Below, piece after piece: positions 13,355 to 61,770 of a DNA stretch of 64,000 nt (within the stretch, counting starts at the first letter, position 1; each line of letters opens with the position of its first letter). The stretch lies in contig UQGR01000001.1 in the NCBI GenBank assembly GCA_900540705.1, positions 90,062-154,061 of the forward strand. Reading direction: 5' to 3'. Under the pieces are notes generated by a model. It made no database searches. It was not told where the DNA came from and worked only from the letters and a program-made list of their open reading frames with translations. This DNA comes from an uncultured Mollicutes bacterium. GTDB lineage: Bacteria > Bacillota_I > Bacilli_A > Acholeplasmatales > Anaeroplasmataceae. The translations under genes and the position numbers were made by a program.

Positions 13355-16300
13355 TTAGATACGATTTAGCATTTCAACTAGATCGCTGTTTGTAACAAGA
13401 CCATCATTATCCATATCTGCAGCTGCATAATACTCATAAGATAGGTTACCCATTCCAGAAACGAAGTTCTGTAATTGCATGAAGTCTGGCGTGATTACCA
13501 TACCATCACCATCTAAGTCACCATTTACAGCAACATAGATGATATCCTTCGTTGCAGCACCTTCCTTAAGTAGGATGCGGTAGCCTGTTCCAATATAGGT
13601 TGTAGCAAATGCATTGGCATTAACCTTTGCATTTCTATTGTTGTATACTAGTACAGACTGACCTTCCTGAAGATTGAAATTATTCAAGAAGTCTTGGATT
13701 GTAGTTTGTTCTTCTACATTTCTTACAACAACTCTCTGAGAAGACTTATAAACCTTATGTGGATCCTTAACTAAGGTTGTTGCATTCTTTGCAACTAGGA
13801 ATTCATAATTAGAATCCTCCTTGATTGTGAATACGGTAAGCTTAATCTTGAAGGTAATCTCAAGTTCGCCTGTATAGTTTCCACAACCTGTTACACGAAT
13901 GATGGCATTAGAACTTGCTTCTACGTTATTTTCATAAGTAACAGTGTAGTCCTTACCTAATACAAGTGTCTTTCCAAAGAAGGAAATTGTTGGAGTAGGT
14001 GTAATTGCCTTACCTGTGTAATTTTGATCCTTAATCTCACTAACCTTTGCAGAAGATATATCTGCTGCAGTAACTCTAACTGTAACATGAGCATCCTCTG
14101 TGCTGGTTGTGGTTGAGCCATCCTCTAATACGATTCTCCACTTATAGTTATCCTTGTCATTTAATACAAGAGTTACATCATAAGTACCTACATTTAAGAC
14201 AGTAGACTGACTAGGTGTATAGAAGTCATTGTAATCAAGGGAGATTTCACGACCAGTAAATTCTCTTACGATTTCCTCTGGTACATCTATTACACGATAA
14301 TCAATAGAATAAGCGAAGGTTGGGTTCACAAGTTTATAGTTCGTATTTGTTGTTGTTGCTGTAGCTGTATAAAGACCACGGTTGATAGATTCATCATTTG
14401 CAGTTACGACTACATCGATTGGATCCTTTAAGGATACTAATACATATGCCTTAGGCATTTGAACTAAGCCATTATAGAAGAATAAATTAGAAGACCATGT
14501 TAGAGTGATTTCTCTTACGGATATTTCAAATTCAAATTCCTTAGAAATAGCTAAGTAGTTTGTACCTTCTGCAATCTCTATTAGAACCTTATACTTACCA
14601 ACTGTAATTGCACCTTCTACTTCTTCATATTCACCTGAAGCATTTTGCTTGAACCAGTGATATGCGGCAACACCATCAGTATTAGAACTATATAGAGGCT
14701 CTTTTACTGCGAAACCATCATAATCCTTAGATAAATCTTCAGAAACAACGATTTCATTAGCATCAATCTTATGGATTGTAACCTCAGCTGAACCTTCTAC
14801 CTCTTCAAAGTTAGCAAAGACAACCTTATAGTAAATTGTATATGTTCCACAATCGCTATAGCGAATTGGACTCAATTGATAATTCTTACCATCAGCACTA
14901 TATAGAACCTGATACTGAACAGAAACGCCCTCTTCTAATACAGGTCTTGGATTGATTGTATAGGCCTGACCAGTATAATCAACCTCATAGCTGTTGCAAG
15001 TAACCTCAATCTTAGCTGGCTTAATGTATACATTCATAAATACATCTACGATGTAATTCTTAGTGATATCCTGACCATGTTCATCTCTAACAATCAAATC
15101 AGAAATATCAAAATGATTGTTATTGATATAGGTACCCTGGTTACCAGTAATTGTATGAATCATACCCTCAACTGTTAAGCCTGGTCTTGGATCCTGTACT
15201 AAGCTTACACCATTGACATTGTAGAATGCAAATTCACCTTCGCCAATCCACTCCTTGATGATTTCTGCCTTTAGAATTGAGAAGTTACTTGCATCAATAC
15301 TGAAGCGTTCACCATCATAATTCTTCATGAATTCAGCAGATAAATCACCGAAGAAGATATGCTTCTTTAATACTTGAATTGTATAATGCTTAGAATCATA
15401 TGCTTTGTAATTATCACTTTCAGAAACATGGAATTGAACTGTATACTCACCAGAATCTATGATGGATGAAACTGCACCATCTGCATTATAGAAGGAGTAG
15501 CTTACTGCCCCATTTCCAATTACCTCATAAAGGATGTCGGCAAAGACCTTAGAATCGGTTTGCTTAGCAGCGATGGTCAACGCTGTACCATCATATACCT
15601 TAGTAAAGTCATACTGGGCATCAGCCATATTATTTACCTTGATATCACTTTCAGCCTTTTCTATCTCAAAGTCAAATGTCTTATGAGTTTCTGCATAGTT
15701 TGCAGATTGACATACGACAACCTCTATCTGATATCTACCAGCATTCACTGGTGCATATCCTAAGTAAGAGCCATCCTGATAATAGTTGATAAATACAGTT
15801 AGACCAAGCTCATCAAACTCTGGTGTATTATATTGTGTACCGAAGATGGAAAGCTCTGGGAAGATTTGAACTCCGTCATAGATCTTATCCAGTTCATTTA
15901 TCAACTCAATTTCATAATTCTTTCTCTTGATGGTAATGGTTAAGGTATCCCTTACCGTTTCATGTCCCTCTAGGATAATTTCATAGTCAAGCTTGTATAC
16001 TCCTGCCTCAACATATTCTAACACTTCCATCAAAACAATACAGTTATCAGGATCTGTCAATACAATTAATTCAGGAACTAAAGCCTCACCATCATATTCT
16101 TTTTCATATTGGTAATGGTTATTGACTAAGGTAGCATCCTTAAATTCATACTCAATTCTTGGAAGGTGAACCTCAAGATACATACTATAGTTAATGTTGA
16201 AGCAAGAAGTAACATCCTCACCATCCATAAGGATAGCAAGATTTGTAACAACTACATCACCAATACTATCATAAATCATACCACGAATACGCTTTTCAGC

Positions 16301-19300
16301 TGGCAGATAGAATTCAAATAAAATCGTATGATTTTCAAGTAAATCTTCTACCTCATCTACCACTACCTCATAGTTATGCTCTGTATCAGCTAATACATCA
16401 ACATCAGCATAGCTTAGGTTGAAGGTATAAGGCTTAATTGTATAGGTGTAGGTGTCATTTAAGGTTCCGAAATTTGGATATCCCTCTGGAAGCTTAGCAG
16501 TAGCTGTATAGGTTCCTGCTAAAATAGAACCATCTTCAACCTCAACAATTAATTCAATCCGATTGCCATCTAAATCTGTAGTGAATGCACTTGGCGTTTG
16601 AACAGTACCATTATAGATGTACTGATCTTCTACCTCCCACTCAACATATAATTCAGTAGCTGCAATCTCAAATTCAAATTCTTTTTCTGTCGTTAAATAG
16701 TATTCATTTCCTTCAACACAGATTACAACCAAATATTTACCAACCTCTGATGGATTAGAAATTGGAGTATCTAAATCATCTAGACTATAGAAAGTAAATG
16801 TCGTATTTTCTGCGGTTGAAGCTACAGAAGAAATCACAATTGGATTTAATACTGCATCACCTGTATACTGTTGCTTTAAGTAGCTAGATAGAATCTCAAT
16901 ATTCATATAGTTTCTTTCAATTTCATATTCAAATGTCTCGATGAAGCCATAATAATTTTGAGTATCTTCTACTGTTATTTCAACTGTATAAACACCAATT
17001 TCAAACGTAGATAATGTCTGAACACCATTCTTGTAGAACTTAATCTTAGAAGGTGCAGAAATAGGAGAAATACTATACTCAATCGCAATATCCTTACCAT
17101 CAAACTTCTTACCATGCATTGCATCTGGATTTGTAAACTCAATGGATAATTGAATTGGACGAATCACAAAATGAATGGTTCCGGTAGTCATTTCATAGTT
17201 AGGAGCTGTAATGATATATGTAATCTCTAAATCTACTGCGGAACGATAATCAAATGGAGTTACAGAGGTTGCATTATTTGCACGATAGGATACTTGAGCA
17301 CCAGGAACGTCTGTTAAAACGACTGCCTTATGCATTAATGCATCGTAATCGTAAGAAACCTCCCATACACCATCAACTAACGTACCATCTAAAACCGTAT
17401 GCTCAATTAGTGGGTTGGTAATAACAATATTAAACTGATATGTTAAATCAAAGTTGCTTAATACACTTTGACCTTCTGCATTTAGAATATCAACACCCTC
17501 CGCAACTAGATGTGTACCAAATCTATTGTATACACCAACGGTAGCTGCAGTTGTTGTCACATATCCAACAAAATACATACCCTCTGGTAGAAGCTCGTTA
17601 AAGTCGCTTAACTCCTTGCGGTAGTTTTCGCCTGTTATAGCCATACGCTCAGAATGTGCAAGCTTTATCTTTCTATTGATGATTCTATAGGACTTAGAAG
17701 TAATGTTTAGACTATAGTTGCCAGACTCATCATCTAAGGACAGATTAACCATCTGATTACCTACAGAACTGCCATCATATCCCTCTGCAGGGGTTGTAAT
17801 AATTCGATAGATTCCTTCATTGTCTCCAGTTACAGAGAAGCTTGGAGCTACAAAGGAGCCAGTATACTCAAGAGTAGATGAACCACTTTCCACATTTAAT
17901 ACCTTAGTTTCAATTGTGAATTCAAACATACCCTCAAAGCTTAAGGAATTGCTGTTCTCCTCTAAGAATACACGTACCTTATATTCACCAGCATTGGTAG
18001 GAGCTGTTGGCAGCTCTACGCCAGCCTTAGTAAAGTAAGTAAATTCAGGAAGAGAATCAGAGGTTGTAAGTACCTTTGGATCAGCATAAGGAATACCATC
18101 GTATACCTTATCCTTTGCCTCTACAGTTACCTGAGGAGTCGTCTTTAGAATCTTCACTGTCATATCATAGGTGATATTGAAGTTCGCTAAACTAATTTCC
18201 TTACTCTCTAGGTAGATATGGAAGGCCTCCTTAGACATTACAATATTTCCTGCAGCGTAAGTATAGGTTGCATCTGCAACATTTGGAACTACACCAAACT
18301 TGAATTCTACATCAAGCTGCTGGTCAGCAAACATCGTAGAATATTCACCCTCATAGATATTTACCTTGTTGTAAATTCTTTCCTCATTGAACTCAATCGT
18401 AAAGTCGAATTTAGAAATAGTAAATTCAACATAGGATACAACTTCTCTATAGTTGTCATCACTATCTAATACAACCTTCAATAGCCAATTGCCGGCATTG
18501 ACAGCTGTACTATATCCTAAAATACTATAACGGTCTAGGAATGGTAGCTGTGCTAATTCTTCAGCCGTCAAATCTGTACGTTCAGGATGGAAGCTGATTC
18601 TTGGTTCAGCTGTACTACCTGTAACCGTAACCTCAGGCAGAACTGGTAAAGCATCATAAATCTTGCTTAAGGAATCGCGATTTACAACGGTAATCGTTGA
18701 GGAAGCCTTAGCAATCTTCACAGTCATCGTACCATGAACTGGCTTATAATAATCACAAGTTACAATGTAATATAGCATGTAGGTTCCTGCTTCTGTCCAA
18801 TTGCTTGGAACATTACATAAACCACCATGTACTCCAATCCAGGTTTCACCATCATAGCTATACTGGATGAAGGCATCCGCACGCTTTGCATCAATAACGA
18901 AGTTGTGGATATCGCCTGGAGTATAAACAGCTGTAAACTCACCTTCAAAGTAATTTGTACCCTCAATTAACTCCTTACGAGTCAAGTTGAATTCAGATGG
19001 TGCTGTGTCCTCAATCGTAACATCTAAGTTCGGATAAATTACTTCAATAGCCTCGCTCAATACTAAGCGATAGTTATTTGTAGTATAAATCTTCGTCGTC
19101 TGATTTTGGAACAAGTCCTCACCATCGATTGTACCCACTAGCTTTAATAATGCACTTGTATAGTCATAGAAGCCCTTTACATTAGGTACTGTGAAGAATA
19201 AATCTAAGTAATGTGTTGCATAAACAATATTATTCTTTGTTACATCCACATTACCACGGAAGCGATAGGATAGCTCTGTGATGCCATGCTTGTATTCAAG

Positions 19301-22300
19301 AACGATACTGCTTAAATCAAAGAATATATCCTCATTATCAATAATAATTGGTAATGCAAATACATCTTCTCTATAAAGTGGATTACGATAATCACGCCAC
19401 TGATAGCTATCAGAGTTTCTCAGCTTAGCATAAATCTTATATTCCTGAGCCAAAAGCTTACCATTAGTACATAAGCGTTCATAAATCTGATTTACAAAGG
19501 CTTCAACCATATGGGCAGGATCTGTTCCATAAGGAACATAAGCAATCTTATCGGTACACTCCTTATCAAAGTAATAATCATATAAATCACTGATTGTTAC
19601 ATCGATATATCTTTGATAATTGATCTTATCATACGTTAATTCTCCATAAACGAATGGTGTATCTACGGTAATCTTTTCAATTACAAATACATTAACCTCA
19701 TTCAACAAGATGTAGTTGTTAGAAGTTGTTCTTGCCTGAACAAGAAGTAAGCCTGCCATCTCAATACTTAAGGATCCGATGGTGTAATCCTGATTACATT
19801 CATAGCTTTCAACTAATGTGTTGTCATTGAATACATCCACCCAAATTGGACATGCCGTATATGGATCAAAGCCTTCCTTGACATTTACATAAGCTCTAGG
19901 CAAGATAAATCTCTTATTCTCATTAAATTCTGTCGTCATATTAGACCAGTATACCATGATTTCCTTCTTATTTACCTTAACACTTAAAGTAAATTGAACT
20001 TCATAGTTCTTTGTCAAATCCACAGAACCACGAGTAATCGTATAATTGCTTGCCCAATTGAACTGAGTTGCAAGATCAGTATAAGAGATTACATTTCCAG
20101 CTTCATCTACTAATACATCTGGTGTATTTAATCTTAATGTACCATTGAGCTGTTCACCAGCAGTTGCAAAATTGTTTACGGAAACGATTGGATTAGAAGC
20201 TGACCAATCGCTGTTCTCCCAAATGTCGCCTTCCTCGAAGGTCTTCTCGTCACTCAACTCTACCGTTAAGATACGACGAACAATCTTGAAGGAAATCTTA
20301 CGAGCATCTGGAACAAGACCAACCTCGGTATAGCCCCATCCGTAATCTACAATCTCATCGCACCATAAGGATTCATCTACCTTTAATCCAGAAACTGGAC
20401 GGTTTGTAAAGACTGCAGTATTGTTTGTAAATACATATACCCATGCATCAGAAATTACATTTCCTTCTGCATCATAGGATACATTTTCATTATTCCAGTA
20501 GTTCGCCTGATATTCTCCCTGACCGAACGTATTTGCTAAGTCATATTTTGGAAGCTTAGCATTTCCAACACGTACCGTATTTTCATTGGATTCATCAAAA
20601 CGAATGACTGGCTTAGGTAAGAATTCTTGACCAGAGTAGGTGATATAGTATCCAGTTTCTGGATCATACTCTAAGCCCTCTAAGCTATCTAGGTCAAGGC
20701 TGATATCTGTACCACTCAGCATAATCTGATAGATACTCTGATCAGCAGATAGAGTCCAAGTTACTCCATCGCCATAGTAAACTAAAGCGTCGCCACCTGA
20801 AATCCATTCCTCTTCAGGGATATAGTTTGTTTCACCCTTAACTCTAGAGACAAAGGCTACAAAGTTTTCACCACCAAGGATAATCTCTTGTCCTAAGCGT
20901 TCAATATTCTTAGAGATTGCAATACCACTAATCTCTAGCTGACTTCTATTGGTCAAATGACTATACTGAGGACTAAGCTCTGCAAAGAACTCATCTACCT
21001 TATCCGCATAATCTAATAACGCACGATCAGTGATTTCAACCACGTCATGTAAGCTTCTCTGCTCAGGGATACGTAAGATGTATCTACCAAGGCTATCTCT
21101 ATGGTTCATAATATGAATTGGTAATAATTCAGTATAACCAATAATCTTGAAGGTGCCTGTCTCATAATCATAATCATAAATGAAGATATCTGCATCCTCT
21201 TCATAGATTACAAGATACTTCGTATGCCATCTCTTAGCTACAGGAACATCTAAACCAGTTACCCAGCCATCTGGATAGCCGCCATCTCCTGTTACATCAT
21301 AGCTTGCTGTGATGAAGAATTGTTCATTCTTTTCAGGATTTTCATACATATCCTCAAATACCGCTTCATGCAGAATCTCTGCAGGCTTAGGTACATTGAT
21401 GTATCTTAAATTTGTTTCACCACTGAAGGCAGCAGTTTCTATTTCTTCAATATGATATGGAAGTTTAACGTCATATAGCGTTGTAACACCTGACATCTGA
21501 CCATTAGTAATTCTTGTGAAGACATCTAAGAACTCTACCTTTGCTAAATTACTTGGTACCCAGAAAGCCTCACCAAATACAGAAGGCGTTCCAGAAATTT
21601 CTCCATCTTCATTGATATATTGGCCAAATCCGTTCTTATCATATGCGATAGCGCCTGTTTCATCTCTAAAGGACTTCTTAACCGTTCTTCCTAAGGCTTC
21701 GTTGTAATCCTTCATAAATTGATGGATTAAGGTTGCACCCTCATAGAAGTCACGACCAAAGATAAATCCAAATAGAGACTCTGAACCAGACTGTGTAGCA
21801 TAGGCATCTGTATCTGCCGCATTAGAACCAATGAATGGTAATGTCATCTTCAATAGACCTGAACAGCCATTAAATGCAGAATAGCCAATATGCTTAACAT
21901 TCTCTGGAATATATAATTCTCTAATCTTATCATTATTACGATAAGCATAAGCCCCAATAGAGGTAACCAAAGCAGGAATTGCTAAATCACTTAAATTGGT
22001 TCCATCGAATGCATAATCCTCAATGGTAGTAATGGTTTGTGGAAGGTCAAATTCAGGTAATGCACTTGCATTCTGGAAGGTTCCTTCCTTGATTACAGCA
22101 ATTTCGCTACTTGTAAACTGAGCATCTACTAAAGCCGTACAGGAAGCAAACATATATTTACCTTCTGCAACATCCTTCATAGAAGCATGCATTTGCACCT
22201 CTTGTAGCTTCGTTGCCTCAGCAAATATATAATTTCCAAAGGAAGTTACATAAGCTGGAACAACCAAATTCATCTTATGCTGTGCCTGTTGAGTTGATCT

Positions 22301-25300
22301 GTAGAACATATGATCACTTAAAATGGTATTGTTGATTGCAATACTTTCTAAGGCATAGGTATCAGCAAACGCATAAGCACCAACATAATCCTCAAGTGTA
22401 TTCGGTAATAGGATATTTACCAATGCTTCAGCATGAGCAAATGCGTAATTACCTAAGTAGGTAATCTCTTTTAGATCTACCTTCTTCATATGGTTTGCAT
22501 TATAGAAGGCATAATGGCCAATATGAGTGGTAAGGTCGGCTAAAATCACACTTTCCATACCAACACATTCTGCAAACGCATAATCACCAATACTTGTGAT
22601 ACACTCAGGAATCACAATCGTATATTCTGTGTTCTTATTGAAATCATTTAACACATCACAGCCATAGAAGGTATATTCCTTAATCTCAGAAATTGCATCG
22701 CCAGCATATTCTACCTTAGTTAAGCTGTCATTCTCATAGAATGCATAGCTTCCTAGATAGTCTGTAGGAGTAGGAATAACCATCTCCTCAAGCTTGCGGC
22801 AACCATAGAATGCATAATCATTAATCTGGAAGGTATCCTGAGGATTTTCTCCATATTGTAAATATACATTGGTTAGACCTGCAAAGTTCATGAATGCACC
22901 ATAGCCTACTACATGATCTACATTCGTTACATAAACGGTCTTTAAAGCCTCAGGAATGTAGTATGTTTCGCTCTTGGCAGCATCGGAATACTTCTGTGGT
23001 GCTGCATAGATATTCGGGTTCTTAGAGGAAACCTTACCGAAGATGTATCCGAATAAGGATTCAGAAGAAGCCTCTGTATATTTATGACCACCAACAAATG
23101 GAACTGTAATATTGGTAAGACCTGTACATCCACCGAAGGCTGCATAGCCAATGGTTGTAACCTTATCTGGAACTACTACATTATTTAAGGAAGGATCATT
23201 AAAGAACATGTAGTTACCAATCTTGACATTGTCAATCGTAATCTCTGCTAGCTTCTCACATTCAGCAAATACATAGTCTCCTACGTTTTCACCAACTACA
23301 GAAGGAACATATAGATTCACAATGGCATCACAGTTGTAGAATGCACGATCCATCAGGTGAGTTACCTTTGCTGGTAAGTAAACCATATAGGTATCATTTG
23401 CGTTAAAGTCTGCCATCTTAACACAACCATTGAATGCAGATACACCGATATGACTTAACATGATTTCAGTTTCTGCAGTTGTATTTTCAAAGCCAACTCT
23501 AACAATTTCCTGTGCACCATAGAAGGCACTATCCTCTATCTTATATAAGCAGTAAGGTAAGGTGACATTTACTAAGGTATCACACTCATAGAATGTACCC
23601 GTATGTAGAACCTCCTGTAACCGAACCTTCACATCTGTCAATGAAATAGGGGTATCCACGATTGCCTTAGCACCAGCTAATCTCTGGTCTAACGCAACTA
23701 ATAGAGATGGACTATAGTAAGTATCTGTGCTGTCTTTACCAAAGAAATAGCCAAAGATAACACTTTCCTTATGCTGCTCAGCAGATTCACATTCTGCATA
23801 TTGCTGACGTCCTACGAATGGAACATCTAAGGATACTAAGCTACCACAGCCACCGAATACATGCTCACCAATCTCTTCTACAGCATCTGGTAAGGTTATA
23901 TCTGTCATCGCAACACAGTTGAAGAACACCTTGTCGCCTAAGGTATGGATCTTAGAGCCAAAGTTAACCTTGCCCTCTTCCTGATGATCAACAGCTAAAA
24001 CAGTCTTTAGCTTATAACAATCATAGAATAGACCTGTTGCTAGTTCTTCAATCACATCGCCCTCAAACTCTACCTTCTTCAGTTCATGACAACCCTTGAA
24101 CGCATATTCTCCTATGCTTTCTGTCGTTGCAGGAACAGCGAAGTATTCAAGCTCAATATAGCTGTCATCTAATAGCTTATTACCTAAATTCATACAGCCA
24201 GCGAAAGCGTAAGCACCAATAGAGGTGAATGGTGTTTCTACTCCATCCATCACACGCTTATCACTTAAGGTGATTGTAGTTAAGCCATCACAGTTATGGA
24301 ATGCACCATAACCAACAGCACTATCATTTGTCACATGAACAATTCTTAAAGAGGTTGGAATATAGTAGGTTTCTGCTAGATTCTCTCCATAGCTTTGAGT
24401 TGTTGCCTTGACATATGCATTTTGTGCTAAAACGGCATCACTATATTTAGATGTAGTACCAAAGATATATCCTAGTAAGGAATCTCGGCCATCTGTACTA
24501 TATGCATGACCACCAACAAATGGAATCCAAATTTCAACTAAGCTGATACAGTCTCCAAATGCGCCCTCACCAATCTCTGTTACATCTTGTGGGATTTCAA
24601 TACGATTTAATCTAGGACAGTTATAGAACTGGTGATCTCCTAGAACCTTATTTTGAATATTAACGATTCTTAATTCTGAGTTATTTGCAAAGGCATACTC
24701 ATCAATTCTTGTAACATTTGCAGGAATTGTAACCTCTCTTAACGCAGGAATATCATAATCCTCCTTCGTGATATCAAAATCAACAGGGAAGTTATCTGCA
24801 TTGTCGAACATATGAGCGCCAATCCAATGGTTCAAAATTTGGATATTTGCTAGAACATCACAGCCAGCAAATACATATGCACCTACTAAACCATCTTCTG
24901 TTGTTCCAACAGATTCTGGAATTGTAACTGCTTGAATAGAATTACAGTTTTCAAATGCGGAATCCTGTAATGCTACTACCTTAGAAGGAACAATTACACC
25001 CTCTGCATCACTATTTGAATTGAAGCGTACTAGGCTTACAGCATCCTTAAAGGCGCTGTTTCCAATATGAGTCAATTCACTTGTTGTATTGTCAGTACCA
25101 AAGTATACCGTCTTAAGGTTCTTTGTATTATAGAATGCATAATCCTCAATTACCTGTAAGGCTTCTGGTAAGACTACATTCTCTACAGAAGAAACATTAG
25201 AGAAGGTACCATAATGGATTACAATCGTATCCGTGATAGTAATATCCTTTAAGGCTTTTGGAACATAATAGCTTACAGTCTCAGATTCTAATGCACCATA

Positions 25301-52300: not shown

Positions 52301-55300
52301 ATAGCCACGACGTGCACTAGTAGTATCGATACGATAGTAAGCCTTTAAGGTCTCGCTGTAGAATGCTTCTACATCCTTTACATCACCTGGCTTATTATCT
52401 CTATATGCGGCAATAAAGCCTAAATCCTCATACGTATAGCTGCCATAAGAGCCTAAAATTTGATATTTTCTGAATACATTATGTCCTAATGCCTCATAGT
52501 AGAACGTCTTAGGTGTAGGAGAGCCTTCAACTACATAGGAGCCTGCAACCACCTGTGGGTCGTTTGCATCAGCCTTTTGATTCTCCATTAATAAATGTAG
52601 AGTATCATCAGCCGTATTGAACTTACCATCTTCTCCAAGCATTGTAAAGGTTCCATTATGATGGTCAATATATACAAGGCCATTATCTATGGATACAACA
52701 ATTCTAGGGGTTAAGGTTGGATCAACCTGACCATACTCATTTCCAACAAATCGATCACCAGATAAGGTTGAATTCCAGTATTGACCACTTGCAGCAAAGG
52801 AAATTTGCTGATAGGTGTTATCTCCATAATCTCTATAGAAATCATCTCCATATTTTGCAAGGGTATAATCTGAATCATTACCAATCTGGGTTGCACCTGC
52901 AGTAGCAACTAAAGTATCTGAATCAGTGCCTGTTAGAGTATTTCCTGTAACAGCATAATAGGTACCATCATGATTATTAATATAGAATTTACCATTATTA
53001 CCAATTACAACATTTAGATTGTTGTCCTCTGTAGTGGTTGGGTCACCATCTGGACCAGCACATACATAAGTATAAGAATAGCTTTGTAAATCTAATTTAT
53101 AATAGATATTGTAATTATGATAGTGATAGAATGCTCCATCCTCTTCACGACGAACAAATACTAATCCACCAATACTTTCAGAAGGTCTATCATCAATGAT
53201 ATAGGCATCATCTTCTGTACCTAAAATCTTGTCATCTCCAGGAACCTGATAAATACTATTGCTCAAATAGATAGCATAAGTACTATCACCTCTTAAATAG
53301 GTGGCATTCAGCTCCTGCTCATCCTTAATACAAATCAGGGTAGAAGCAAATTCGCCTGCACTATAGGTCCAACGATTATAGAAGTTTCCAGATAATAGCT
53401 GGTAGAAGGAACCATTTTCGTTAGCTTCTACCTCTATTAGTTCACTATCATGGAACACATAGATTGCTTCCTCTAGGGCACCATCTACAATCTTTTGGAG
53501 ACTATGATCAAGATTGATATAGTAATATACATTTTGAATTACCATAATAGAATCCGTAAAGCCATCTGCTGTACGATAAACTAAGGTCTTCGTCAATGCA
53601 TTCACATCGATGTGATAATATACGCCTGTTTCTAAATAGGAATAATATGCGCCGTCGATTTCCTCAACCACATACTCAACATCATCAATAGTAACCGTCT
53701 TCACATCATCAGCTGTACCTAGCTTACCATCAGCACCATAAGCATAAACGATGTTTCCAATTTGATAAGCATAGTTTCCACCTGCAAGCTCTAATACCTG
53801 AATGACTTGATTTTTATTTGCTAGAGAGAAGCTTCCTGTCTCATCACCTAAGAAATACTTGCCATAGGTAAAGCTATTGGTTGTAGAGTTATAAGTAACC
53901 TCTCTAAATAGGTTGATATCCTTATAGAGACTTCCATAGCCGATAACCTCATAATATGTATTCTCATGAACTAAAACAACGATATCATCAACCGTTTGAG
54001 CAACTAAATCTAAACCAATTAGCTTGAAGTGATTGCCAAAACGATAATAATCATCTGGAGTGCCTTCAATACCGTCTAAACCATTCTGTAATGTAATGGC
54101 ACTACTTTGAGCTCTTTGAACTAAATAGGTTATATATTCGGGGTCTCCGGGCAGAGGGTCCGTGGAACCAGAATCAGTTCCATCGGCAGGTACATCGCCA
54201 CCAGGATAATATCCGTTTGGTAACTCATAATGAATATCCTGAATGTAGTTAGAATGGAAGGTTACAGTTGTCAAATTTGTACACTTATTAAATGCACCCT
54301 TACTGATGACCTTGGTACTATAAGCGATAGAAACCTTCTTGAGCTTCTTATCCTCACTAAACATATATTCACCAAGAACTTCACATTTCAAAACAGCATT
54401 CACTAAATTGTTACTCTTTGCAAAAGAGTATTCACCAATCTCTGTAACAGAGCTTGGTACCACAATCTCAATCAATCCAGAATTATAGAAGGCTCTATCG
54501 CCGATATACTCTAGTTGAGAGGAAAGAGTAAGTTCTTCTAAGCTAACACAATTTAAGAAAGCTTCATGACCAATCCGCTGAACTGTATTAGCCATAACAT
54601 TTGTATTGTATAGGGTATAATCATATTTCACATAGGTATCTGTCTTTACCTGAGGTACAACGGCTTCTTCTTTTGGCTGTTCTACTTCTGCCTTCAAAAC
54701 ATTGAAATCCGTTGTGATTCCTAAAATATCATCTAAAGTACCTAGCTTACCATCTTTACCATATCCAAGATAGGATGGTTCATTGATGAAAGAAGCCAGT
54801 GGTAGGTAAAGATAATGAGTACCATCTTCACCTGTAATGATTTGAATATAGGTGTAAACCTCACCCTTAAGGGTAAGCTTACCATAATTTAATAATTCTT
54901 TATTGGCCTGAATTTGAGAATAGGTCAGCGTTCCATACTTTGCAAGGTCATCCTCTGTACCAATGATTTCATCAGCACCAGCACAGAAAATATCACCTAG
55001 AGTAAATAAGGTAGAACCCTCTTCAGGATCTAGAATTTCCTGATAGGTATTATCATTATAGGATACATAGCATTTGCCATCACTTACAACTACATTCCGA
55101 TAAAGAATAGAATCTGATATAGAGGTGATAGCTGAACTCTTAAAGCCTAGGAATATAATTTGATCATCCGTAGTTCCTAGTACTCCATCATTGCCAACTA
55201 CTTGATATAAATGGTATTTAGCATTGCTGATTGGAAGATATACAATATCCTTTTCATCAACTACTACTTCTTTTAATGTACCATCAATTAAACCATAGCG

Positions 55301-58300
55301 AGTTGGACCAAATGCATAATTCCAGGTGCCATCTATACTAGATTGTATTGTCAAGGTAGAATATGTGTTATTTAAATAGTCTCTATAGAATCTTCCTTGA
55401 ATCTTTGCAATCACAAAATCATCTGAGGTCTCAAAATTATTATCTGCACCGATACCGATTAAGATATCATCCTCTGTACCTAATAATCCATCTGGACCAT
55501 ACGCATAGAAGGTACCATCCTGATTGTCAATATAGAATTTATCACTGCGGATAACTCCAGAGGTAATATCATCTGCTGTACCAGCAGCCAAATCAGGTCC
55601 GCCACAAAGATAGTTTCCAGTCGCAATGAAGGTGCCACTATAGCCTACCTTTCTATATTCTGCAAAGACATTGTTAGATACATATCGATACTCATAGGTT
55701 GTCGTAGTAGCTTCAAAGATGAGTTCTCTTAGGTTTGCACAATCGGCAAACATACCCTCATAAATATCTGCAATACCTTCTCCAAAATAAGCTGTCACCA
55801 GACCAGAATTTTGGAATACATAAACACCGCAATCCTGTAAGGTGGAAGGAATACGAACCGTTTCTAAATTGGTAGTATCAATAAAGGCATAATCGCCAAT
55901 GCTCGTCAATCCTTCAAGCATATAAAGACTAGATAAACTAGATAATCCAGCAAACGCATATGCAGGTAAGGAGGTACCCGTGAAGTACACTTCAATGCTT
56001 GCAGGCAAATACCGAGTAGAGAATGCTGTTTCAGAGGATTGCGCACGATTTTCAATCATAGAATCCTTAGCTACTGTACCAAACAAATAACCAAAGTTAT
56101 TTGAACCAGCAACAAGTCCACTACTGCCATACTGGCCTAGCTTATTGATATATAGAGAATCTAAAGCGGTACAACCAGCAAATACGGCTTCGCCTACACT
56201 GATTACACTTCTTGCAAAATCCATCTGTCTTAAAGATGTACAATTTTCAAATGCGCTAGCCCCAATCGTTATATTTTGACCAAACAATTCAACATCAGAT
56301 AAATTAGGACAATCCTTAAACATAGAATTAGAGATAATAGAACCAAAAATGGTGGCTTTCGTCAATCTTTGATTGCTGGAGAAAGCACCTGTTCCAATCT
56401 CAGAAACAAGGTTAGATACCTCAACAGAGGAAATTCCAGTATTATGGAAGGAATTTGCTCCTAAGCGTGTTACATAGGCATCTAGATTAATATTTTCAAT
56501 GTCAACACAGTTGTAGAAAGCACCTTCTGTAATACCGACAGCTGTATTCTGACGTGTGTTCAAAATATTTACAGTTTTTAAAGTCGAAGGAATTTGATAA
56601 GCAATGCTTCTTCCGTTTGCCACAAAGGTTCTAGAAGGAGAAACTGTATCAAAAGCATTAGATCTAACATAGCGGTAGCTACCATTATGCCAGCCACCCT
56701 CATATTGGAAGAACCATGCACCTAATACACCTGTATGATATGCCGCTCCATTGGTCAATAATAAATGACTGGATGCAACAGAGCTAGCACCATTGCTAGT
56801 ACCAATAAATGGCACCGTCAAGGTTTGTAGATTTCTACAGTTATACATAGTACTTTCACGAATGGTCGTAACTGTACTTCCAATATTAATATCTGTCAAT
56901 GAGGTTGCAGACCAGAAAGCAAGATAAGGAATGATGCTTGCGTTAGTAACAGAAACCTTCTTCAAGGATTTAGGTAAATACCAATACTCAATCTTACATT
57001 CACCATCAACTGTAGAACCACCCCAGCCCATATAACAGTAATAATTTACCTGAACTCGATAGGATTTAGAAGCATCAGAATAGGCCTGACCTGAGGCGAT
57101 TGTTATACTTCTACCATAGCTTGAATAGTTTGGATAGGCATCCGTAGCTCCAAAGAACCAGCCAATGGTATATCTAGAATAGAAATATTGATGATAGTTG
57201 CCATAACCATTATAGTAGGAAGGAGATGCATTGTAGCCAACAAATGGCACTGATAAATCTTCAATATCTACATCCCAGAATATATTTCTACCTATCGTAG
57301 TAACTGTATTTGGTATTACAACAGAGGTTAGGCTAGAACACTTTGCAAAGGCATAGGTTCCAATACTAGTAATGTTAGATGGGAACTCAGGGAATTGCAG
57401 ACTTGAACAGCCATAGAAGGCATAGCTAGGAATACCATATGCAGCTAAACTTGTAGAGGCAGCAAAATATACATTTCGTAAATTCACACAATCCTTAAAC
57501 ATATAGCTTCCCATCACTCTTGTGTAAACTGTTGCGTAAAGAAGACCACTACAAGCCTCAAATGCTCTAGGGGCTATGCTGGTTACACTTTCAGGAATTA
57601 GCAATTCCTCCACACTAGCACAATTATAGAAGGCATATTCTCCTATGGTCTTAAGGGTTTTAGGTAAGATTAAGTTTGTCAAAGAGGTACAGCCATTAAA
57701 TGCATTAGCAGCAATATCAGTAACCTCCTGGAAATCTATAGTTGTAATTGCGGTACAGCCCATAAACATACTTGCACCAACTTTTTTATTGGTAAATAAG
57801 ATGGATTCAAGCTGATCACAGCCTACAAATACCTCACTATCAATCGTAACAAGATTTTCAGGAATAACGATAGAAATCAAGCTATCACAGTTATAGAAGG
57901 CTCTAGAATTTAACGTTGTCAAATTGTTAGGCATCGTTATGAAGGCCAAACTAGAACAATTCTCAAAGGCAGAGGTACCAATTTCTACAATGCTATCTGG
58001 TAAAACGATATCTGATAGATTGTAGCAATTATAGAACGCCTTTTGATTGATGGTTGTACAAATGGTACCCTCGCTACCATTTCCTTGATTTAAATCTACA
58101 GTAACTAATGCAACACATCCCTCAAAGGCAGAGGTTGAAACATACTTTACATTTTTCAAATGTACAATCTCTAAATTCGTACAATTTAGGAACATGTTTC
58201 TTCCCATTTCCTTACATTCTACTGTTGCGGTAGTTAAGCCTGTACAGTTTGCCAAAACATCACTACCGATTTCTGTAATCGTCTTAGGCACAGTGAAATT

Positions 58301-61300
58301 TCTTAAGCCTGTACAACCATAGAATGCATAATTTCCAAGAGTTGTTGCAGTAGTAGGAATATTGATAGATTGTAGCATTGTACAATTATAAAATGAGCCG
58401 TATAAAATATTATTTTCTTGCGTTACAATAACATTATTTAAGCTATTTGGAATGTAAGATACATAAGAACCAGAAGCTGAAAATTTGCTTGTAACTTGCG
58501 TAGAATTATCTGCCTGAGCACGCCCAAAGATATAGCCAAATACAGTTGTAGCAGATGGAGCTTCTGGATTTGTTGTAGGGTCATAAAGCTTATTTCCTAC
58601 AAATGGAATCGTCAGGGTATTCAAGCTAGTACAGCCATTAAATATACCCTCATTCATTAACTTAACTGTATCAGGAACCTTAAAGGAATCCAAGCTAGAA
58701 CAATTTGCAAAGGCATAGGTATCAATTGTCTCTAAATTTACTAGGGCACTCGTATCCACATTAGAAAGACTAGAGCAATTAGAAAAAGCATATTGACCGA
58801 TATAGGTGATAGGACTACCCAAAGTTAAATTTGTCAATCTTGTACAATCTGCAAACATATAATTTCCAACACGTACAAGGTTCAAGGTCACTGTATTTAA
58901 ATAGTCACAGCCCTCAAAGGAATGCTCTCCTATTGTGGTTGGATATTGTGCAGTTCCATCCTCGGCAACCGTTCCGATGGTAAGCTCATGTAGATTCTTG
59001 CAATCCTTGAACATATAATCGCTAATTTCAGAGGAACTAACCTCTACAGAATAAACACCAGTTTTAGAGAAAGCATACTCTCCAACTGAGGTTACATTCG
59101 CACCAACATACAAAGTGCTTGTATTTGTAGATGGACCGCAAAGCAGTTCATCATTGTAGAACATGTAAGGACTAATTTTACTATTATGGATAGTAGCATT
59201 TTGTAACCCAATACAGTTAGCAAAAGCATACTCTCCAACATTATCTCCAACTTCAGCAGGAATTGTTACCTCCTGTAGAACAATACAGTTAAAGAACATA
59301 TATGGAGCAATCTTCTTACATGCATTCAAATCCACTTCTCTTAAAGCAAGAGAATAGGCAAAAGCTAGGTTTCCTACTTCTTCGACACTAGAAGGAATAG
59401 AAATAGATACCAAGCTAGATCTATAGAACGCATGAGTAGGGATTTCTACGGTCGTAGGATTCAATACTAGCTGAGTAAGCTTGCTATCATTGGCAAACAT
59501 AAATTCGCCTAAGGCATTCGTCAAAAGATTTACATTTGTAAGCTCTGTACAGTTAGCAAAAGCATGAGTTTCCACTTTACGAATTGTACTCTTAAGCTCA
59601 ATATTTACTAAGGCTGTACAGCCGTCAAACATATAGGCACCAAGAGTAGGACAATCTAAAGTTATATTCTTCAGCATTACACAATTTGCAAAGGCAGAGT
59701 TCTTCTCTACCGTCTTATTTACAATTTTTTCTGTATTTGCCGTATAGTCAAATTCATAGGTACTAATATTTTCTTCCGTACGCTTTATGACGTTAGAAGC
59801 ATTTGAACCAATATAAATCCCTTCCAAATATGGGCAGTTATAGAACATTCTATAGCTTATATCCTTAGAATTGACACTCGCAAAGGTCAATTCCTGCATA
59901 TTTGCAAAGGCATAATCGCCAACCGTATTAACTGCATTGGTAAGTCTTATCTCTGGGAATGCAGTATTATAGAATGCATAAGAGCCAATAGACTGGACAG
60001 AACTTACAAATTCACCCTCATGGTTTGGCTCATAAGATAGAATTGACAAGGTTGAAAGCTTCACACAATCTCTGAAGTACTCATCTGGAATTTGAGTCAC
60101 AGGATCCTCTGGTGCAAAGTTGATGGTCGTCAAACTACTACAGCCAGCAAAGAAACCAGGAGTTAAGACATTCTTCCTTAAGAAATTAACAGTAGACAAT
60201 AAGGTTGCATCTCTTAAGAAATCAATTCCACAGGATTCAAAAAGGTCACCAGGAATTGTAATCACTTCAATGTTTGAACAGCCCTTTAAAATGCCATCCC
60301 CTAAAGTGATCTGTTCTGTTGCCAAAGAAAAATCAAAGGATACCATACCTCTACAATCGTTAAAGGCATAGGAATCAATGGTTGTTACATTTTTCGGAAG
60401 AATAAACGTAGCAAGGTTTGTATTACTAAATGCACGTTCTCCGATTCTCGTAATTGTCAAGCTAGTAGAAATATCTTCATAGCTTGGATATAAGGTTACA
60501 AAGCTTAATGCGTTACAGCTTTGGAAAGCAAAATCAGGGATTTCAGGAGTATTATCACTGATTCTTGCAGAAACCAAAGAGGCACAATCTTTGAAGATTC
60601 CAACACTTAAATTGTCAGCACGTACCGTAGCTGTAATTAAATTCTGACAGCTTAGGAAGGTGTACTCTCCAATCGTTGCACAGGTCTTAGGTACATCTAC
60701 TGATTCAAGACCATCACAATTGTAGAAAGCATATCTACCTAAAGATTCTAGGCTATCTCCTAAAGACACACCTCTTAAAGCTGTATAAGAGTATCCATTC
60801 GCTAAGGTTACATCATTTGCAAAAGCATAATCACCAATTGTTTTTACATTCTGCATACGTAGATTATCATTGGTATCATAATCCACGCGGAAAGCATTTC
60901 TAAAGGCATTCGCTCCTACATAGGTTAAATCATTCATATATTCAGCTATTTGAACAATTTGTCTGCCATTATTTGCTGAACTAGTATAGAACGCATTTGC
61001 TCCTATGTACTGAAGATTTGAACATAAGGATAAGTCAAACTTTGTATACTCAAAAGCGGAATATGTCCGGTTTGCATTCCATGCCCAAAAGGTTGTAATA
61101 CCTTGTGAAAAAGCATTCGCTTCTATTCTCAATAATGTTTTTGGAAGTTTTATTACAGATGGAGAGATGATGTTATAATGACGGCATCCATCAGAATAAA
61201 GCTGTGGAGAATAATGAGATGCAATACTACTTCCGATTCTCGTTACTGTATAACCTGCATAAGTTGATGGGATTTCAATTGCTGGAGAACCATTATCGGT

Positions 61301-61630: not shown

Positions 61631-61636
61631 AAACAT

Positions 61637-61643
61637 ACCTCCT
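61637..61643 (-). promoter_or_regulatory. Shine-Dalgarno AGGAGGT for gene A
   Basis: Minus strand: TTAACAGGAGGTATGTTTATGAAAAAG. GGAGG lies 7 nt before ATG 61630 and directly abuts ATG 61636. Confidence 0.7.
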
Positions 61644-61726
61644 GTTAAAGAATCAATTTTATTCTTCTGATGAGAAAGCTTTTCCCTTCCCAACAAGTAT
61701 ATTTTCTTTTTCTTTTTTGTCTCTCC

Positions 61727-61752
61727 CACATACGCGCGTATACACGCGCACA
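61727..61752. promoter_or_regulatory. 26-nt strictly alternating pyrimidine-purine, GC-rich tract (cacatacgcgcgtatacacgcgcaca) containing the palindrome TACGCGCGTA. It lies in the gene A 5' leader just downstream of the -10. Z-DNA-prone, and would form a strong RNA hairpin.
   Basis: Read directly: plus 61727..61752 alternates Y-R without interruption. The surrounding intergenic DNA is about 20% GC. Confidence 0.5.
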
Positions 61753-61770
61753 ACGCACTCACGTATGATA

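What the first reader, a model, noticed from the sequence alone, without database searches (positions are those of the whole stretch)
13355..61762. Single uninterrupted 48.4-kb ORF encoding a protein of about 16,100 aa
An open frame of 16,135 codons in a roughly 36% GC sequence cannot be chance, since stop-codon triplets are frequent in AT-rich DNA. The gene has a signal peptide, a consensus promoter, an RBS and a terminator. That places it among the largest bacterial proteins known. It is a composite of four repeat types in series: LRR, Asp/Gly-rich repeats, LRR, then Ig-like repeats. The product would be a filament-length surface adhesin.
Basis: seen in the sequence. Interest (0 to 1): 0.8.

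Follow-up and report, generated by a model that had tools for sequence, protein, structure and literature searches.

The report
Giant LRR–dockerin surface protein gene
A wall-less gut bacterium of the Anaeroplasma family carries a genuine, conserved 48-kb gene for a single 1.8-megadalton secreted protein built from hundreds of leucine-rich repeats, a new Asp/Gly-loop module, Ig-like modules and a docking domain; it is most likely a giant cell-surface adhesin, but its function is inferred and not shown.

Summary
Confirmed. Window 13355..61762 (minus strand) is one stop-free frame of 16,135 codons (chance about 1e-517; the other frames open for at most 173 codons). The real start is most likely ATG 61630, because AGGAGG lies 7 nt upstream and the promoter -10 ends at 61771. 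That gives 16,091 aa, 1.79 MDa, pI 4.4. It is not an assembly artefact. The DNA has no repeat longer than 29 nt. Orthologues in independent Anaeroplasmataceae assemblies are collinear and open over residues 1-14,862 (53-63% identity, dN/dS 0.13-0.18), and another assembly reproduces the 3' end.

Architecture, N to C:
- signal/anchor;
- about 9,600 aa of BspA-type LRR_5 arrays in two zones;
- a 1,800-aa lineage-restricted Asp/Gly-loop beta-module zone with no Pfam or PDB match;
- about 790 aa unassigned;
- 15 Ig-like MBG/LAR_0958-type modules;
- one type-I dockerin.

No catalytic domain was found.

Best reading: a Sec-exported giant surface adhesin of a wall-less gut Mollicute, in a conserved tandem cluster of large LRR genes. 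Function and anchoring are inferred. Larger bacterial proteins (up to 85,804 aa) and signal-LRR-dockerin proteins are already known, so this is a new member of a known kind. It is notable for its size, its lineage, its non-repetitive DNA and the new module.

The parts
61771..61799 (-). Sigma-70-type promoter TTGAAC-17 nt-(TG)TATAAT
   Evidence: 10 of 12 consensus matches plus an extended -10 TG. It places the transcription start near 61763.
61631..61763 (-). Inferred 5' UTR of about 130 nt; it contains the GTG that the ORF listing took as the ORF start
   Evidence: Follows from the promoter position and the start-codon analysis. A GC hairpin near its 5' end is not significant (z -1.3). No Rfam family matches.
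61638..61643 (-). Ribosome-binding site AGGAGG, 7 nt before ATG 61630
   Evidence: Read directly from the sequence. Orthologues have GAGG/AGGAGG at the same place.
13355..61630 (-). Coding sequence, 16,091 codons plus TAA stop; 1,791 kDa, pI 4.4
   Evidence: There is no in-frame TGA, so the genetic code is table 11.
61523..61630 (-). N-terminal signal peptide or signal anchor (residues 1-~36: MKKIFMNTIKKG + an 18-residue hydrophobic core + SPGS)
   Evidence: It is the only strongly hydrophobic 19-mer in the protein. The same layout occurs in three orthologues and in P0019. No Cys is present, so it is not a lipoprotein. Cleavage was not tested.
55646..61075 (-). LRR zone 1, BspA-type LRR_5 repeats (residues 186-1995)
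   Evidence: Pfam PF13306, E = 0, 27 stretches in the first 5000 aa. Mapped with my own iterative HMM.
50165..55645 (-). Asp/Gly-loop beta-module zone (residues 1996-3822), with about 17 copies of the G-x-D-G-x-x-G-T-x-D-D motif
   Evidence: - D+G content is 16-21% here against about 12% elsewhere.
- The motif is confined to this zone.
- The motif positions are the invariant columns across relatives.
- AF2 models residues 1985-2225 with pLDDT about 80-92, all beta, with each motif forming an 11-12-residue loop between strands.
- Only 10 hits in 1.84e9 representative proteins.
54224..54649 (-). Small LRR_5 island inside the Asp/Gly zone (residues 2328-2469)
   Evidence: it dominated that homology search. 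It is also present in P0019.
21326..50164 (-). LRR zone 2, BspA-type LRR_5 arrays (residues 3823-13435), interrupted by loop or domain insertions that begin PF[ILV]G...FG[YW]xF
   Evidence: Pfam LRR_5: 31 and 25 stretches in the two middle chunks. HMM map. Insertions. Units are only about 30% identical to one another.
18950..21325 (-). Unassigned region of about 790 aa between the LRR end-cap and the Ig-like modules (residues 13436-14227)
   Evidence: No Pfam or NCBIfam hit. Conserved in the L004 orthologue.
13817..18949 (-). Fifteen Ig-like MBG/YDG/LAR_0958-type modules of about 65-90 aa (residues 14228-15938)
   Evidence: - Module alignment A3.
- Its profile matches PDB 4ng0 (L. reuteri LAR_0958 adhesin repeat) at E 5.8e-4 over its full length, then the PKD domains of collagenases.
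- A local HMM finds 15 modules and hits MBG/YDG-annotated proteins with 8-11 domains each.
- Pfam MBG scores 23.0 against a cutoff of 23.3.
- The AF2 model of this part failed.
13523..13816 (-). Pre-dockerin segment of about 98 aa (residues 15939-16036), not assigned
   Evidence: Conserved in P0002 at 44% overall identity. No family hit.
13358..13522 (-). Type-I dockerin (residues 16037-16091) with two intact 12-residue Ca-binding loops, DLDGDGMVITPD and DMDNDGLVTNSD
   Evidence: Pfam PF00404 scores 27.4-29.7 bits against a cutoff of 22.9. The only PDB sequence matches for the last 2656 aa are dockerins (8x39, 2y3n_B, 4uyp_B, 3ul4_B, 1ohz_B).
13313..13353 (-). Intrinsic terminator: 17-bp stem, 5-nt loop, U8
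   Evidence: Sequence. Fold -22.1 kcal/mol, z = -7.5, 0 of 200 shuffles as stable.
1..12888 (-). Downstream paralogous giant gene (at least 4,296 aa; runs off the window) with its own promoter and signal anchor; LRR_5 at residues 293-1127 and at least 10 of the same Ig-like modules
62011..63999 (-). 3' end of the upstream large LRR_5 gene (at least 662 aa visible), with its own terminator at 61967-61989
   Evidence: It is syntenic with upstream genes of at least 1,515 and 2,018 aa in L001 and L003.

Best explanation
This is one real, expressed-looking gene of an Anaeroplasmataceae bacterium, a wall-less anaerobic gut or rumen Mollicute. It encodes a 16,091-aa (1.79 MDa), acidic, non-enzymatic extracellular protein.

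Proposed mechanism:
1. Transcription starts from its own sigma-70 promoter and ends at its own terminator (consensus matches only; no expression data).
2. The N-terminal signal sequence sends the chain through Sec (inferred).
3. Outside the cell, about 9,600 residues fold into long BspA-type LRR solenoids with inserted loops. These give a very large, diversified protein- or glycan-binding surface. This step is inferred from what BspA and LrrA do.
4. The 1,800-aa Asp/Gly-loop zone folds into beta-meander modules. Its conserved acidic loops may bind Ca2+ (speculative).
5. The 15 Ig-like MBG-type modules act as a stalk (inferred).
6. The C-terminal type-I dockerin plugs into a cohesin on a membrane-bound partner. 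In a cell with no wall, no sortase signal and no lipobox, this would be the retention device. The alternative is that the uncleaved N-terminal anchor holds the protein and the dockerin is the distal tip.

The protein would form a fibril a few hundred nm long, as a rough estimate. It would mediate adhesion to host mucosa or to other microbes, alongside the paralogous giant LRR proteins encoded immediately upstream and downstream.
For: Shown:
- The open frame cannot be chance.
- Promoter, RBS and terminator are present.
- No DNA repeats that could mislead an assembler.
- Orthologues:
  - L001-L003 (three Anaeroplasmataceae MAGs) are open for at least 7,157-7,687 codons and align as single HSPs at 61-63% identity to residues 1-7,643.
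  - L004 is open over all 28,091 bp and collinear with residues 5,846-14,862.
  - L067, a Logan assembly, aligns at 94% nucleotide identity across the 3' end, the stop, the intergenic region and the next gene.
- Purifying selection: dN/dS 0.13-0.18 over 7,000 codons.
- Domains:
  - LRR_5, E = 0, about 80 stretches.
  - Dockerin_1 above threshold, plus PDB dockerin matches.
  - The Ig-like module profile matches the solved LAR_0958 adhesin repeat, which is Ig-like (PMC7677277).
- The only hydrophobic span is at the N-terminus, and orthologues share it.
- No catalytic family was found in any segment.

From the literature:
- BspA and LrrA are surface-exposed. BspA binds fibronectin and fibrinogen. 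Both promote co-aggregation and epithelial adhesion and invasion (PMC2843621).
- Signal-LRR-dockerin proteins exist in R. flavefaciens (PMC2930009).
- Tandem giant extracellular protein genes occur in another small genome, A. kunkeei Giant1-5 (PMC12863079).
Against: - Nothing here shows transcription, translation, export, localisation or binding.
- No cohesin partner was found or could be searched for.
- Dockerin conservation is shown only in a 98%-identical strain (P0001). The 44% relative P0002 is cut off just before that point.
- In a rumen survey, no cohesins or dockerins were assigned to Tenericutes (PMC6487960).
- Signal-peptide cleavage was not predicted with a dedicated tool.
- The AF2 model of the Ig-like/dockerin end failed (pLDDT 33.5), so the 'Ig-like' label rests on sequence profiles with modest E-values.
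- In one distant relative (L066) the orthologous frame is interrupted once, so an intact single chain is not universal.
- The ligand is unknown.
Confidence: 0.7

Rival explanations
1. Assembly artefact: the long frame comes from collapsed, expanded or chimerically joined repeats and does not exist as one gene in the organism.
For: The gene is made of repeats at the protein level. The window's provenance and read support are unknown. Public protein sets hold only fragments of this family, none longer than about 7,076 aa.
Against: - At the DNA level there is nothing to collapse: longest exact repeat 29 nt, no tandem repeats, 9 weak self-hits of 90 nt or less.
- LRR units are only about 30% identical to one another.
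- Independent assemblies give the same collinear open frame over residues 1-14,862 and over the 3' end.
Confidence: 0.03
2. The gene is one ORF but the product is not one protein. The chain is cleaved after export into several shorter LRR, Asp/Gly and Ig-dockerin proteins. In some lineages it may be encoded as two or more genes.
For: In the distant relative L066 the orthologue is called as 2,578 aa plus 11,619 aa, with the break inside the Asp/Gly zone. Distinct zones separated by unassigned linkers would allow processing.
Against: - The L066 break is an 8-nt overlap of two frames in an A-rich stretch, typical of a 1-nt indel.
- Four other orthologues are uninterrupted at that position.
- No protease domain or recognisable cleavage motif was found.
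Confidence: 0.12
3. Its role is substrate or complex assembly, not host adhesion. It would be a dockerin-bearing structural subunit of a cellulosome- or amylosome-like multiprotein complex that binds plant fibre or other particles.
For: It carries a type-I dockerin. Signal-LRR-Doc proteins are part of the R. flavefaciens dockerin repertoire. Relatives come from gut and rumen settings.
Against: - No CBM, glycoside hydrolase or cohesin was found in this protein or its two neighbours.
- No scaffoldin is known in this lineage.
- The R. flavefaciens authors themselves suggest some dockerins serve cell-surface structuring.
Confidence: 0.12
4. It is a device for capturing other bacteria. The LRR arrays bind cell surfaces of other microbes, feeding the bacteriolytic and proteolytic lifestyle described for rumen anaeroplasmas.
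For: One orthologue is from a MAG labelled Anaeroplasma bactoclasticum. Rumen mycoplasmas are reported as bacteriolytic (PMC8941964). BspA and LrrA mediate bacterium-bacterium co-aggregation. Giant proteins elsewhere have been linked to attachment to prey.
Against: No lytic or peptidoglycan-binding domain was found. Two orthologues come from assemblies whose isolate names (MGBC107741, MGG03682) suggest gut-genome catalogues; the host was not checked, so host-directed adhesion is equally plausible. This rival differs from the main explanation only in the target.
Confidence: 0.15

Closest known systems
BspA-type (TpLRR / Pfam LRR_5) surface proteins: Tannerella forsythia BspA, Treponema denticola LrrA, Trichomonas TvBspA
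   Same: The repeat type is the same (PF13306, E = 0, about 80 stretches). Like them it has a signal sequence and is predicted to be extracellular. Those proteins are surface-exposed adhesins and co-aggregation factors (PMC2843621).
   Different: This protein is 10-30 times longer; TvBspA proteins range from 58 to 1,865 aa. It has about 9,600 aa of LRR in two zones, plus an Asp/Gly zone, Ig-like modules and a dockerin. The host is wall-less. No binding data exist.
Signal-LRR-dockerin proteins of Ruminococcus flavefaciens FD-1, and similar LRR_5+Dockerin(+Big_3) proteins in gut metagenomes
   Same: The order is the same: signal, LRR, C-terminal dockerin (PMC2930009). Proteins with PF13306+PF00404(+PF07523) of about 1,900-2,250 aa appear among the homologues (P0026, P0037, P0058).
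   Different: Those are ordinary-sized and belong to organisms with known cohesin scaffoldins. Here the protein is 16,091 aa, and no cohesin is known in the lineage.
Giant predicted proteins of gut Clostridia (10,000-30,000 aa) and of Omnitrophota (up to 85,804 aa) (West-Roberts et al. 2023, bioRxiv 10.1101/2023.11.21.568195)
   Same: The size class matches the 10-30k aa Clostridia group. So do the gut origin, the LRR and dockerin content, and the proposed role in adhesion to other cells.
   Different: - The lineage differs (Mollicutes/Anaeroplasmataceae), and that paper does not mention it.
- There is a single dockerin, not many.
- There are no multiple TM segments and no SecA-DEAD domain.
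- The size is below that paper's 30,000-aa 'giant' cut-off.
- The DNA is non-repetitive, so the gene assembles completely.
Apilactobacillus kunkeei Giant1-5 (PMC12863079)
   Same: Both have consecutive genes for very large extracellular proteins in a small-genome, host-associated bacterium, with a solenoid binding region plus an elongated remainder. Here at least three consecutive large LRR genes fill the 64-kb window, and at least the gene pair formed with the upstream neighbour is syntenic in relatives.
   Different: There is no sequence relationship. Giant1-4 have an SRRP-like beta-solenoid and are 3,000-8,000 aa. Here the solenoid is LRR_5, and the protein is two to five times longer and ends in a dockerin.
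Lactobacillus reuteri CmbA / LAR_0958 mucus adhesin (PDB 4ng0); Pfam MBG/YDG modules
   Same: The profile of the 15 C-terminal modules matches the solved LAR_0958 repeat over its full length (E 5.8e-4). That repeat is Ig-like, and the protein mediates binding to mucus and Caco-2 cells (PMC7677277).
   Different: The similarity is remote: single modules fall just below Pfam's cutoffs. LAR_0958 is LPXTG-anchored with six repeats. Here the modules are a minor C-terminal part of the protein, and there is no LPXTG.

Membership tests
BspA-type LRR proteins (Pfam LRR_5, PF13306) | Repeated 22-25-residue TpLRR units recognised by the LRR_5 model above its gathering score | tested here: met
   Bit scores of 1264, 1323 and 1258 against a cutoff of 27.7, with 27+31+25 stretches. 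The modal spacing of the core motif is 23 aa.
BspA-type LRR proteins (Pfam LRR_5, PF13306) | Exported or surface-located (signal sequence) | tested here: inconclusive
   The N-terminal K-rich segment plus an 18-residue hydrophobic core is conserved in orthologues. No dedicated signal-peptide predictor or experiment was available.
BspA-type LRR proteins (Pfam LRR_5, PF13306) | Adhesive function (binding to ECM, host cells or other bacteria) | not testable with these tools
   Known only for BspA and LrrA (PMC2843621).
Type-I dockerin (Pfam Dockerin_1, PF00404) | About 55-60-aa module with two F-hand segments, each a 12-residue D-x-D/N-x-D-G-x-x-x-x-x-D Ca loop followed by a helix | tested here: met
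   27.4-29.7 bits against a cutoff of 22.9, covering profile positions 2-56 of 57. The loops DLDGDGMVITPD and DMDNDGLVTNSD were read directly. The PDB matches are all dockerins.
Type-I dockerin (Pfam Dockerin_1, PF00404) | A cognate cohesin encoded by the same organism | not tested
   No cohesin is present in the window's three proteins or in the flanks of the related loci.
Cellulosome/amylosome component | Dockerin-bearing subunit with a carbohydrate-active or carbohydrate-binding module, in an organism with scaffoldins | tested here: not met
   No GH, CE, PL or CBM family was found in any segment. No scaffoldin is known. It is therefore not filed as cellulosomal.
MBG / YDG Ig-like adhesin modules (Pfam PF17883, PF18887, PF18657; PDB 4ng0) | Module recognised by the family model above threshold | tested here: inconclusive
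   Single chunks score 23.0 against a cutoff of 23.3 (MBG), 17.0 against 25 (MBG_3) and 15.5 against 25 (YDG). A profile of 14 modules hits 4ng0 at E 5.8e-4 and hits MBG/YDG-annotated proteins many times each. The structure model failed.
'Giant proteins' as defined by West-Roberts et al. 2023 | At least 30,000 aa; for Omnitrophota types also many TM segments and SecA-DEAD domains | tested here: not met
   The protein has 16,091 aa, one hydrophobic span and no SecA domain. It fits that paper's '10,000-30,000 aa large genes of gut Clostridia' description instead.
Mollicute surface lipoproteins / Gram-positive LPXTG proteins (usual anchoring classes) | A lipobox Cys after the signal peptide, or a C-terminal LPXTG plus hydrophobic tail | tested here: not met
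   There is no Cys in the first 40 residues. The C-terminus is the dockerin, with no LPXTG and no hydrophobic tail.

The most novel reading that the evidence does not exclude
In wall-less Anaeroplasmataceae, dockerin-cohesin pairing would replace cell-wall anchoring. A conserved cluster of tandem giant LRR proteins would form a fibrillar surface coat used to seize other cells, either host cells or bacterial prey of this bacteriolytic group. The lineage-restricted G-x-D-G-x-x-G-T-x-D-D beta-module would be a new Ca2+-stabilised fold that gives the fibril its rigidity.
Probability: 0.12. Interest if true: 0.75.

Novelty: new member of a known kind. Interest (0 to 1): 0.5.

Why it matters
- It is a well-supported 16,091-aa protein, complete in this window from start codon to stop. 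Its DNA is non-repetitive, so it assembles cleanly and its evolution can be followed residue by residue across species. Most giant adhesins are hard to assemble.
- A gene of this size is a large investment for a bacterium of a group generally described as having small genomes (genome size not measured here). This one gene is 48 kb, and the window's 64 kb is almost entirely three such genes. The purifying selection measured over its first 7,000 codons (dN/dS 0.13-0.18) argues for an important role at the cell surface.
- It raises a testable question: how does a cell without a wall retain a 1.8-MDa extracellular protein? The dockerin points to a cohesin partner not yet described in Mollicutes.
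- It also contains an 1,800-aa module type with no counterpart in Pfam or among solved structures.

Tried and rejected
- The homology search with the whole Asp/Gly zone was swamped by its 140-aa LRR island. Only P0018 and P0019 were useful.
It was re-run on residues 2490-3680.
- The AF2 model of the last 772 aa failed (pLDDT 33.5).
- The afdb50 fold library was unavailable.
- A self-BLAST of the Asp/Gly zone and an iterative HMM seeded on one Ig-like module did not spread, because the copies are too divergent. Motif-anchored alignment was used instead.
- A whole-protein self-BLAST returned nothing usable. A tiled version showed only diffuse 23-30% similarity and no super-repeat or recent duplication.
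- I considered that the gaps in the LRR map mark fusion points of ancestral genes. I rejected this because each gap starts with the same intra-array insertion motif, PF[ILV]G...FG[YW]xF.
- NCBIfam gave nothing for the non-LRR zones.
- Rfam found nothing in the window, and the 5' UTR hairpin is not significant.
- Genetic code 4 was considered and rejected. There is no in-frame TGA in 16,091 codons, and Trp is always TGG.

Full report
OBSERVATION

The ORF is real. The ORF listing gives 13355..61762 on the minus strand, 16,135 aa from a GTG. A six-frame scan gives 16,138 stop-free codons. With the local base composition a stop is expected in 7.1% of codons, so the chance of such a frame is about 1e-517. 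Over the same span the other five frames hold 880-1,899 stops and open for at most 173 codons. Codon-position GC is periodic at 0.45/0.37/0.30. There is no in-frame TGA, so the standard bacterial code applies.

GENE BOUNDARIES

A strong promoter match (TTGAAC, 17 nt, TG-TATAAT; 10 of 12) lies at 61799..61771. Transcription should therefore start near 61763, and the GTG at 61762 cannot be a start codon. Forty-four codons downstream, AGGAGG (61643..61638) precedes ATG 61630 by 7 nt. Translation from this ATG opens MKKIFMNTIKKG, followed by an 18-residue hydrophobic core. Three orthologues start the same way, directly after GAGG/AGGAGG.

The CDS is therefore 13355..61630: 16,091 aa, 1,791 kDa, pI 4.4. 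The TAA stop is followed by a 17-bp hairpin and U8 (-22.1 kcal/mol, z = -7.5). The upstream gene has its own terminator at 61989..61967, so the giant gene looks like a separate transcription unit. No Rfam family matches anywhere in the window.

IS IT AN ARTEFACT?

No. The gene is repetitive only at the protein level.
- The longest exact DNA repeat in the 64-kb window is 29 nt. TRF finds no tandem array. BLASTN against itself gives 9 weak hits of 90 nt or less.
- LRR_5-sized segments are about 30% identical to one another (95th percentile 39%). Tiled self-BLASTP shows only diffuse 23-30% similarity.

Independent assemblies agree.
- Three Anaeroplasmataceae MAGs (L001 MGBC107741, L002 'Anaeroplasma bactoclasticum' NALB_7863_1, L003 MGG03682) carry orthologues. 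These are open to the end of the fetched DNA, at least 7,157-7,687 codons. Each aligns as one HSP to residues 1-7,643 at 61-63% identity.
- A 338-kb metagenome contig (L004) is one open frame over all 28,091 bp fetched. It is collinear with residues 5,846-14,862 at 53-58% identity.
- A Logan contig (L067) from a close strain aligns end to end at 94% nucleotide identity with window 18793..8801. This covers the 3' end, the dockerin, the stop, the intergenic region and the next gene.
- dN/dS is 0.13-0.18 over 7,000 codons in all six pairwise comparisons, with dS near saturation.

The one exception is a distant relative (L066, 34% identity). There the frame is broken once, and the two open frames overlap by 8 nt in an A-rich stretch. 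This is the signature of a 1-nt indel, whether real or a sequencing error.

ORIGIN

All close relatives are labelled Anaeroplasmataceae. The lineage is Mycoplasmatota; Mollicutes; Anaeroplasmatales. The window's own species was not in the collections searched; the best matches are 98% protein identity and 94% DNA identity.

ARCHITECTURE (residues counted from ATG 61630)

- Residues 1-~36: signal peptide or signal anchor. This is the only strongly hydrophobic span in the protein. It contains no Cys, so the protein is not a lipoprotein.
- Residues 186-1995 and 3823-13435: BspA-type LRR_5 arrays. Pfam gives E = 0 with about 80 stretches. My own HMM finds 107 domains covering 9,583 aa. The modal unit spacing is 23 aa.
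- The apparent gaps in the array all begin with PF[ILV]G...FG[YW]xF. They are loop or domain insertions, not gene-fusion seams.
- Residues 1996-3822: an Asp/Gly-enriched zone enclosing a 140-aa LRR island. It holds about 17 copies of G-x-D-G-x-x-G-T-x-D-D, which occurs essentially nowhere else in the protein. The motif positions are the invariant columns across relatives.
  - AF2 models residues 1985-2225 confidently (pLDDT about 80-92) as all-beta. Each motif forms an 11-12-residue loop between strands.
  - Pfam and NCBIfam give nothing above threshold.
  - An exhaustive HMMER search of 1.84 billion representatives finds only 10 proteins. They all look like fragments of the same family (not individually checked).
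  - At single-sequence sensitivity, this module is lineage-restricted.
- Residues 13436-14227: unassigned.
- Residues 14228-15938: fifteen modules of about 65-90 aa sharing K-x-Y-D/T-G ... G-x-Y-x-V ... N-Y ... F-x-F-x-I-x-K.
  - A profile of these modules matches the solved repeat of the L. reuteri adhesin LAR_0958 (4ng0) over its full length (E 5.8e-4). The next matches are collagenase PKD domains.
  - The profile also hits MBG/YDG/Big_3-annotated proteins 8-11 times each.
  - Single chunks fall just under Pfam's MBG cutoff, 23.0 against 23.3.
  - The LAR_0958 repeat is described as Ig-like (PMC7677277).
  - The AF2 model of this end failed, so the Ig-like assignment rests on sequence only.
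- Residues 16037-16091: a type-I dockerin above threshold, with both Ca loops intact. The only PDB relatives of the last 2,656 aa are dockerins.
- No enzyme family was found anywhere in the protein.

CONTEXT

The giant gene lies between two paralogues on the same strand.
- Downstream (12888..1) is another giant gene of at least 4,296 aa that runs off the window. It has its own promoter, its own signal anchor, LRR_5 repeats and at least 10 of the same Ig-like modules.
- Upstream (63999..62011) is the 3' end of a large LRR_5 gene. It is syntenic with genes of at least 1,515 and 2,018 aa in L001 and L003.
- The whole 64-kb window is essentially three such genes.

MECHANISM

Shown: a conserved, selected, signal-bearing, non-enzymatic multi-domain protein made of LRR_5 arrays, Ig-like modules and a dockerin.

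Inferred:
- Sec export.
- LRR solenoids acting as a very large diversified binding surface. This rests on BspA and LrrA, which are surface-exposed; BspA binds fibronectin and fibrinogen, and both drive co-aggregation and epithelial adhesion (PMC2843621).
- The Ig-like modules acting as a stalk.
- Retention on a wall-less cell through dockerin-cohesin docking, or alternatively through an uncleaved N-terminal anchor.
- As a rough estimate of my own, about 400 LRR units at about 0.5 nm each, plus 15 Ig-like modules at about 4 nm each, would give a few hundred nm if extended.

Speculative: the acidic loops of the Asp/Gly module bind Ca2+.

The rivals are listed separately: post-export processing into pieces, a cellulosome-like structural role, and capture of prey bacteria. 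The last two change the target and not the mechanism.

COMPARISON WITH WHAT IS KNOWN

- Signal-LRR-dockerin proteins are known in R. flavefaciens (PMC2930009). LRR_5+dockerin proteins of about 2,000 aa are common in gut metagenomes.
- Predicted bacterial proteins reach 36,805 and 85,804 aa. Gut Clostridia proteins of 10,000-30,000 aa with LRR and dockerin repeats have been mentioned (bioRxiv 10.1101/2023.11.21.568195).
- Tandem giant extracellular protein genes occupy 6% of the A. kunkeei genome (PMC12863079).
- I found no paper linking Anaeroplasma to giant genes or to dockerin-bearing proteins. A rumen survey assigned no cohesins or dockerins to Tenericutes (PMC6487960).

VERDICT

The finding is a genuine and well-supported giant surface-protein gene. 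It is a new member of a known kind. It is notable for its size, its Mollicute host, its non-repetitive DNA with full-length conservation, the unanswered anchoring question and a new module type. It is not a record holder, and its function is untested. Interest 0.5.

Noticed in passing
window 1..12888 (minus strand): A second giant gene of at least 4,296 aa runs off the left edge of the window. It has its own promoter (13017..12989) and its own signal anchor. It carries LRR_5 at residues 293-1127 and at least 10 MBG-like Ig modules at 1973-4219. About 840 aa between them, and further stretches, are unassigned. Its C-terminus, and whether it also ends in a dockerin, lie outside the window.
   Followed up: partly
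window 62011..63999 (minus strand): This is the 3' end of an upstream large LRR_5 gene that runs off the right edge. It ends in a Trp/Tyr-rich cap (…GWNNNWYPGGDNVFWYSE…GNYWHYG…) and has no dockerin. The cap and the synteny are conserved in L001 and L003, where the gene is at least 1,515 and at least 2,018 aa.
   Followed up: partly
L066:17727-17913 (ENA ERZ28633530 scaffold_140): In a distant relative the orthologue is called as 2,578 aa plus 11,619 aa. The two open frames overlap by 8 nt in an A-rich stretch (GAAAATAAATGAAC), which suggests a 1-nt frameshift. This could be a sequencing error, a pseudogene or a genuine split. In this relative the gene lies downstream of an Rnf operon and a transglutaminase-like gene, not another LRR gene.
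   Followed up: partly
window 50165..55645 (residues 1996-3822): The motif G-x-D-G-x-x-G-T-x-D-D gives weak, sub-threshold hits to domain IV of the quinohemoprotein amine dehydrogenase alpha subunit (Pfam PF09100, 22.8 against a cutoff of 25; NCBIfam TIGR03908). Foldseek's local hits are to beta-propellers. Whether the zone forms closed propellers when longer pieces are modelled is unknown.
   Followed up: partly
window 39872..41767 (residues 6621-6842 and 7034-7253): This is the most similar internal pair in the protein: 42% identity over 225 aa, against 23-30% elsewhere. It spans two of the non-LRR insertions, so it is a locally duplicated insertion domain of unknown type.
   Followed up: no
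window 34781..35563 (residues 8690-8950): This is the largest insertion in the LRR array, about 240 aa. It gives only noise-level hits to small beta-sandwich families (FlgD_ig, DUF6383). It may be an embedded accessory domain.
   Followed up: no
window 61725..61765 (minus strand): A GC-rich near-palindrome (GCGCGTGTATACGCGCG) lies at the predicted 5' end of the transcript, in otherwise AT-rich DNA. Its fold is no better than shuffled sequence (z -1.3). It could be an operator or a stabilising 5' hairpin.
   Followed up: partly
public protein collections: No full-length member of this family is present in the protein databases searched. The longest hit was 7,076 aa, and most are contig-end fragments. 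Yet at least four contigs of 100-338 kb carry open frames of more than 7,000 codons. These giant genes appear to be systematically missing or fragmented in protein catalogues.
   Followed up: no
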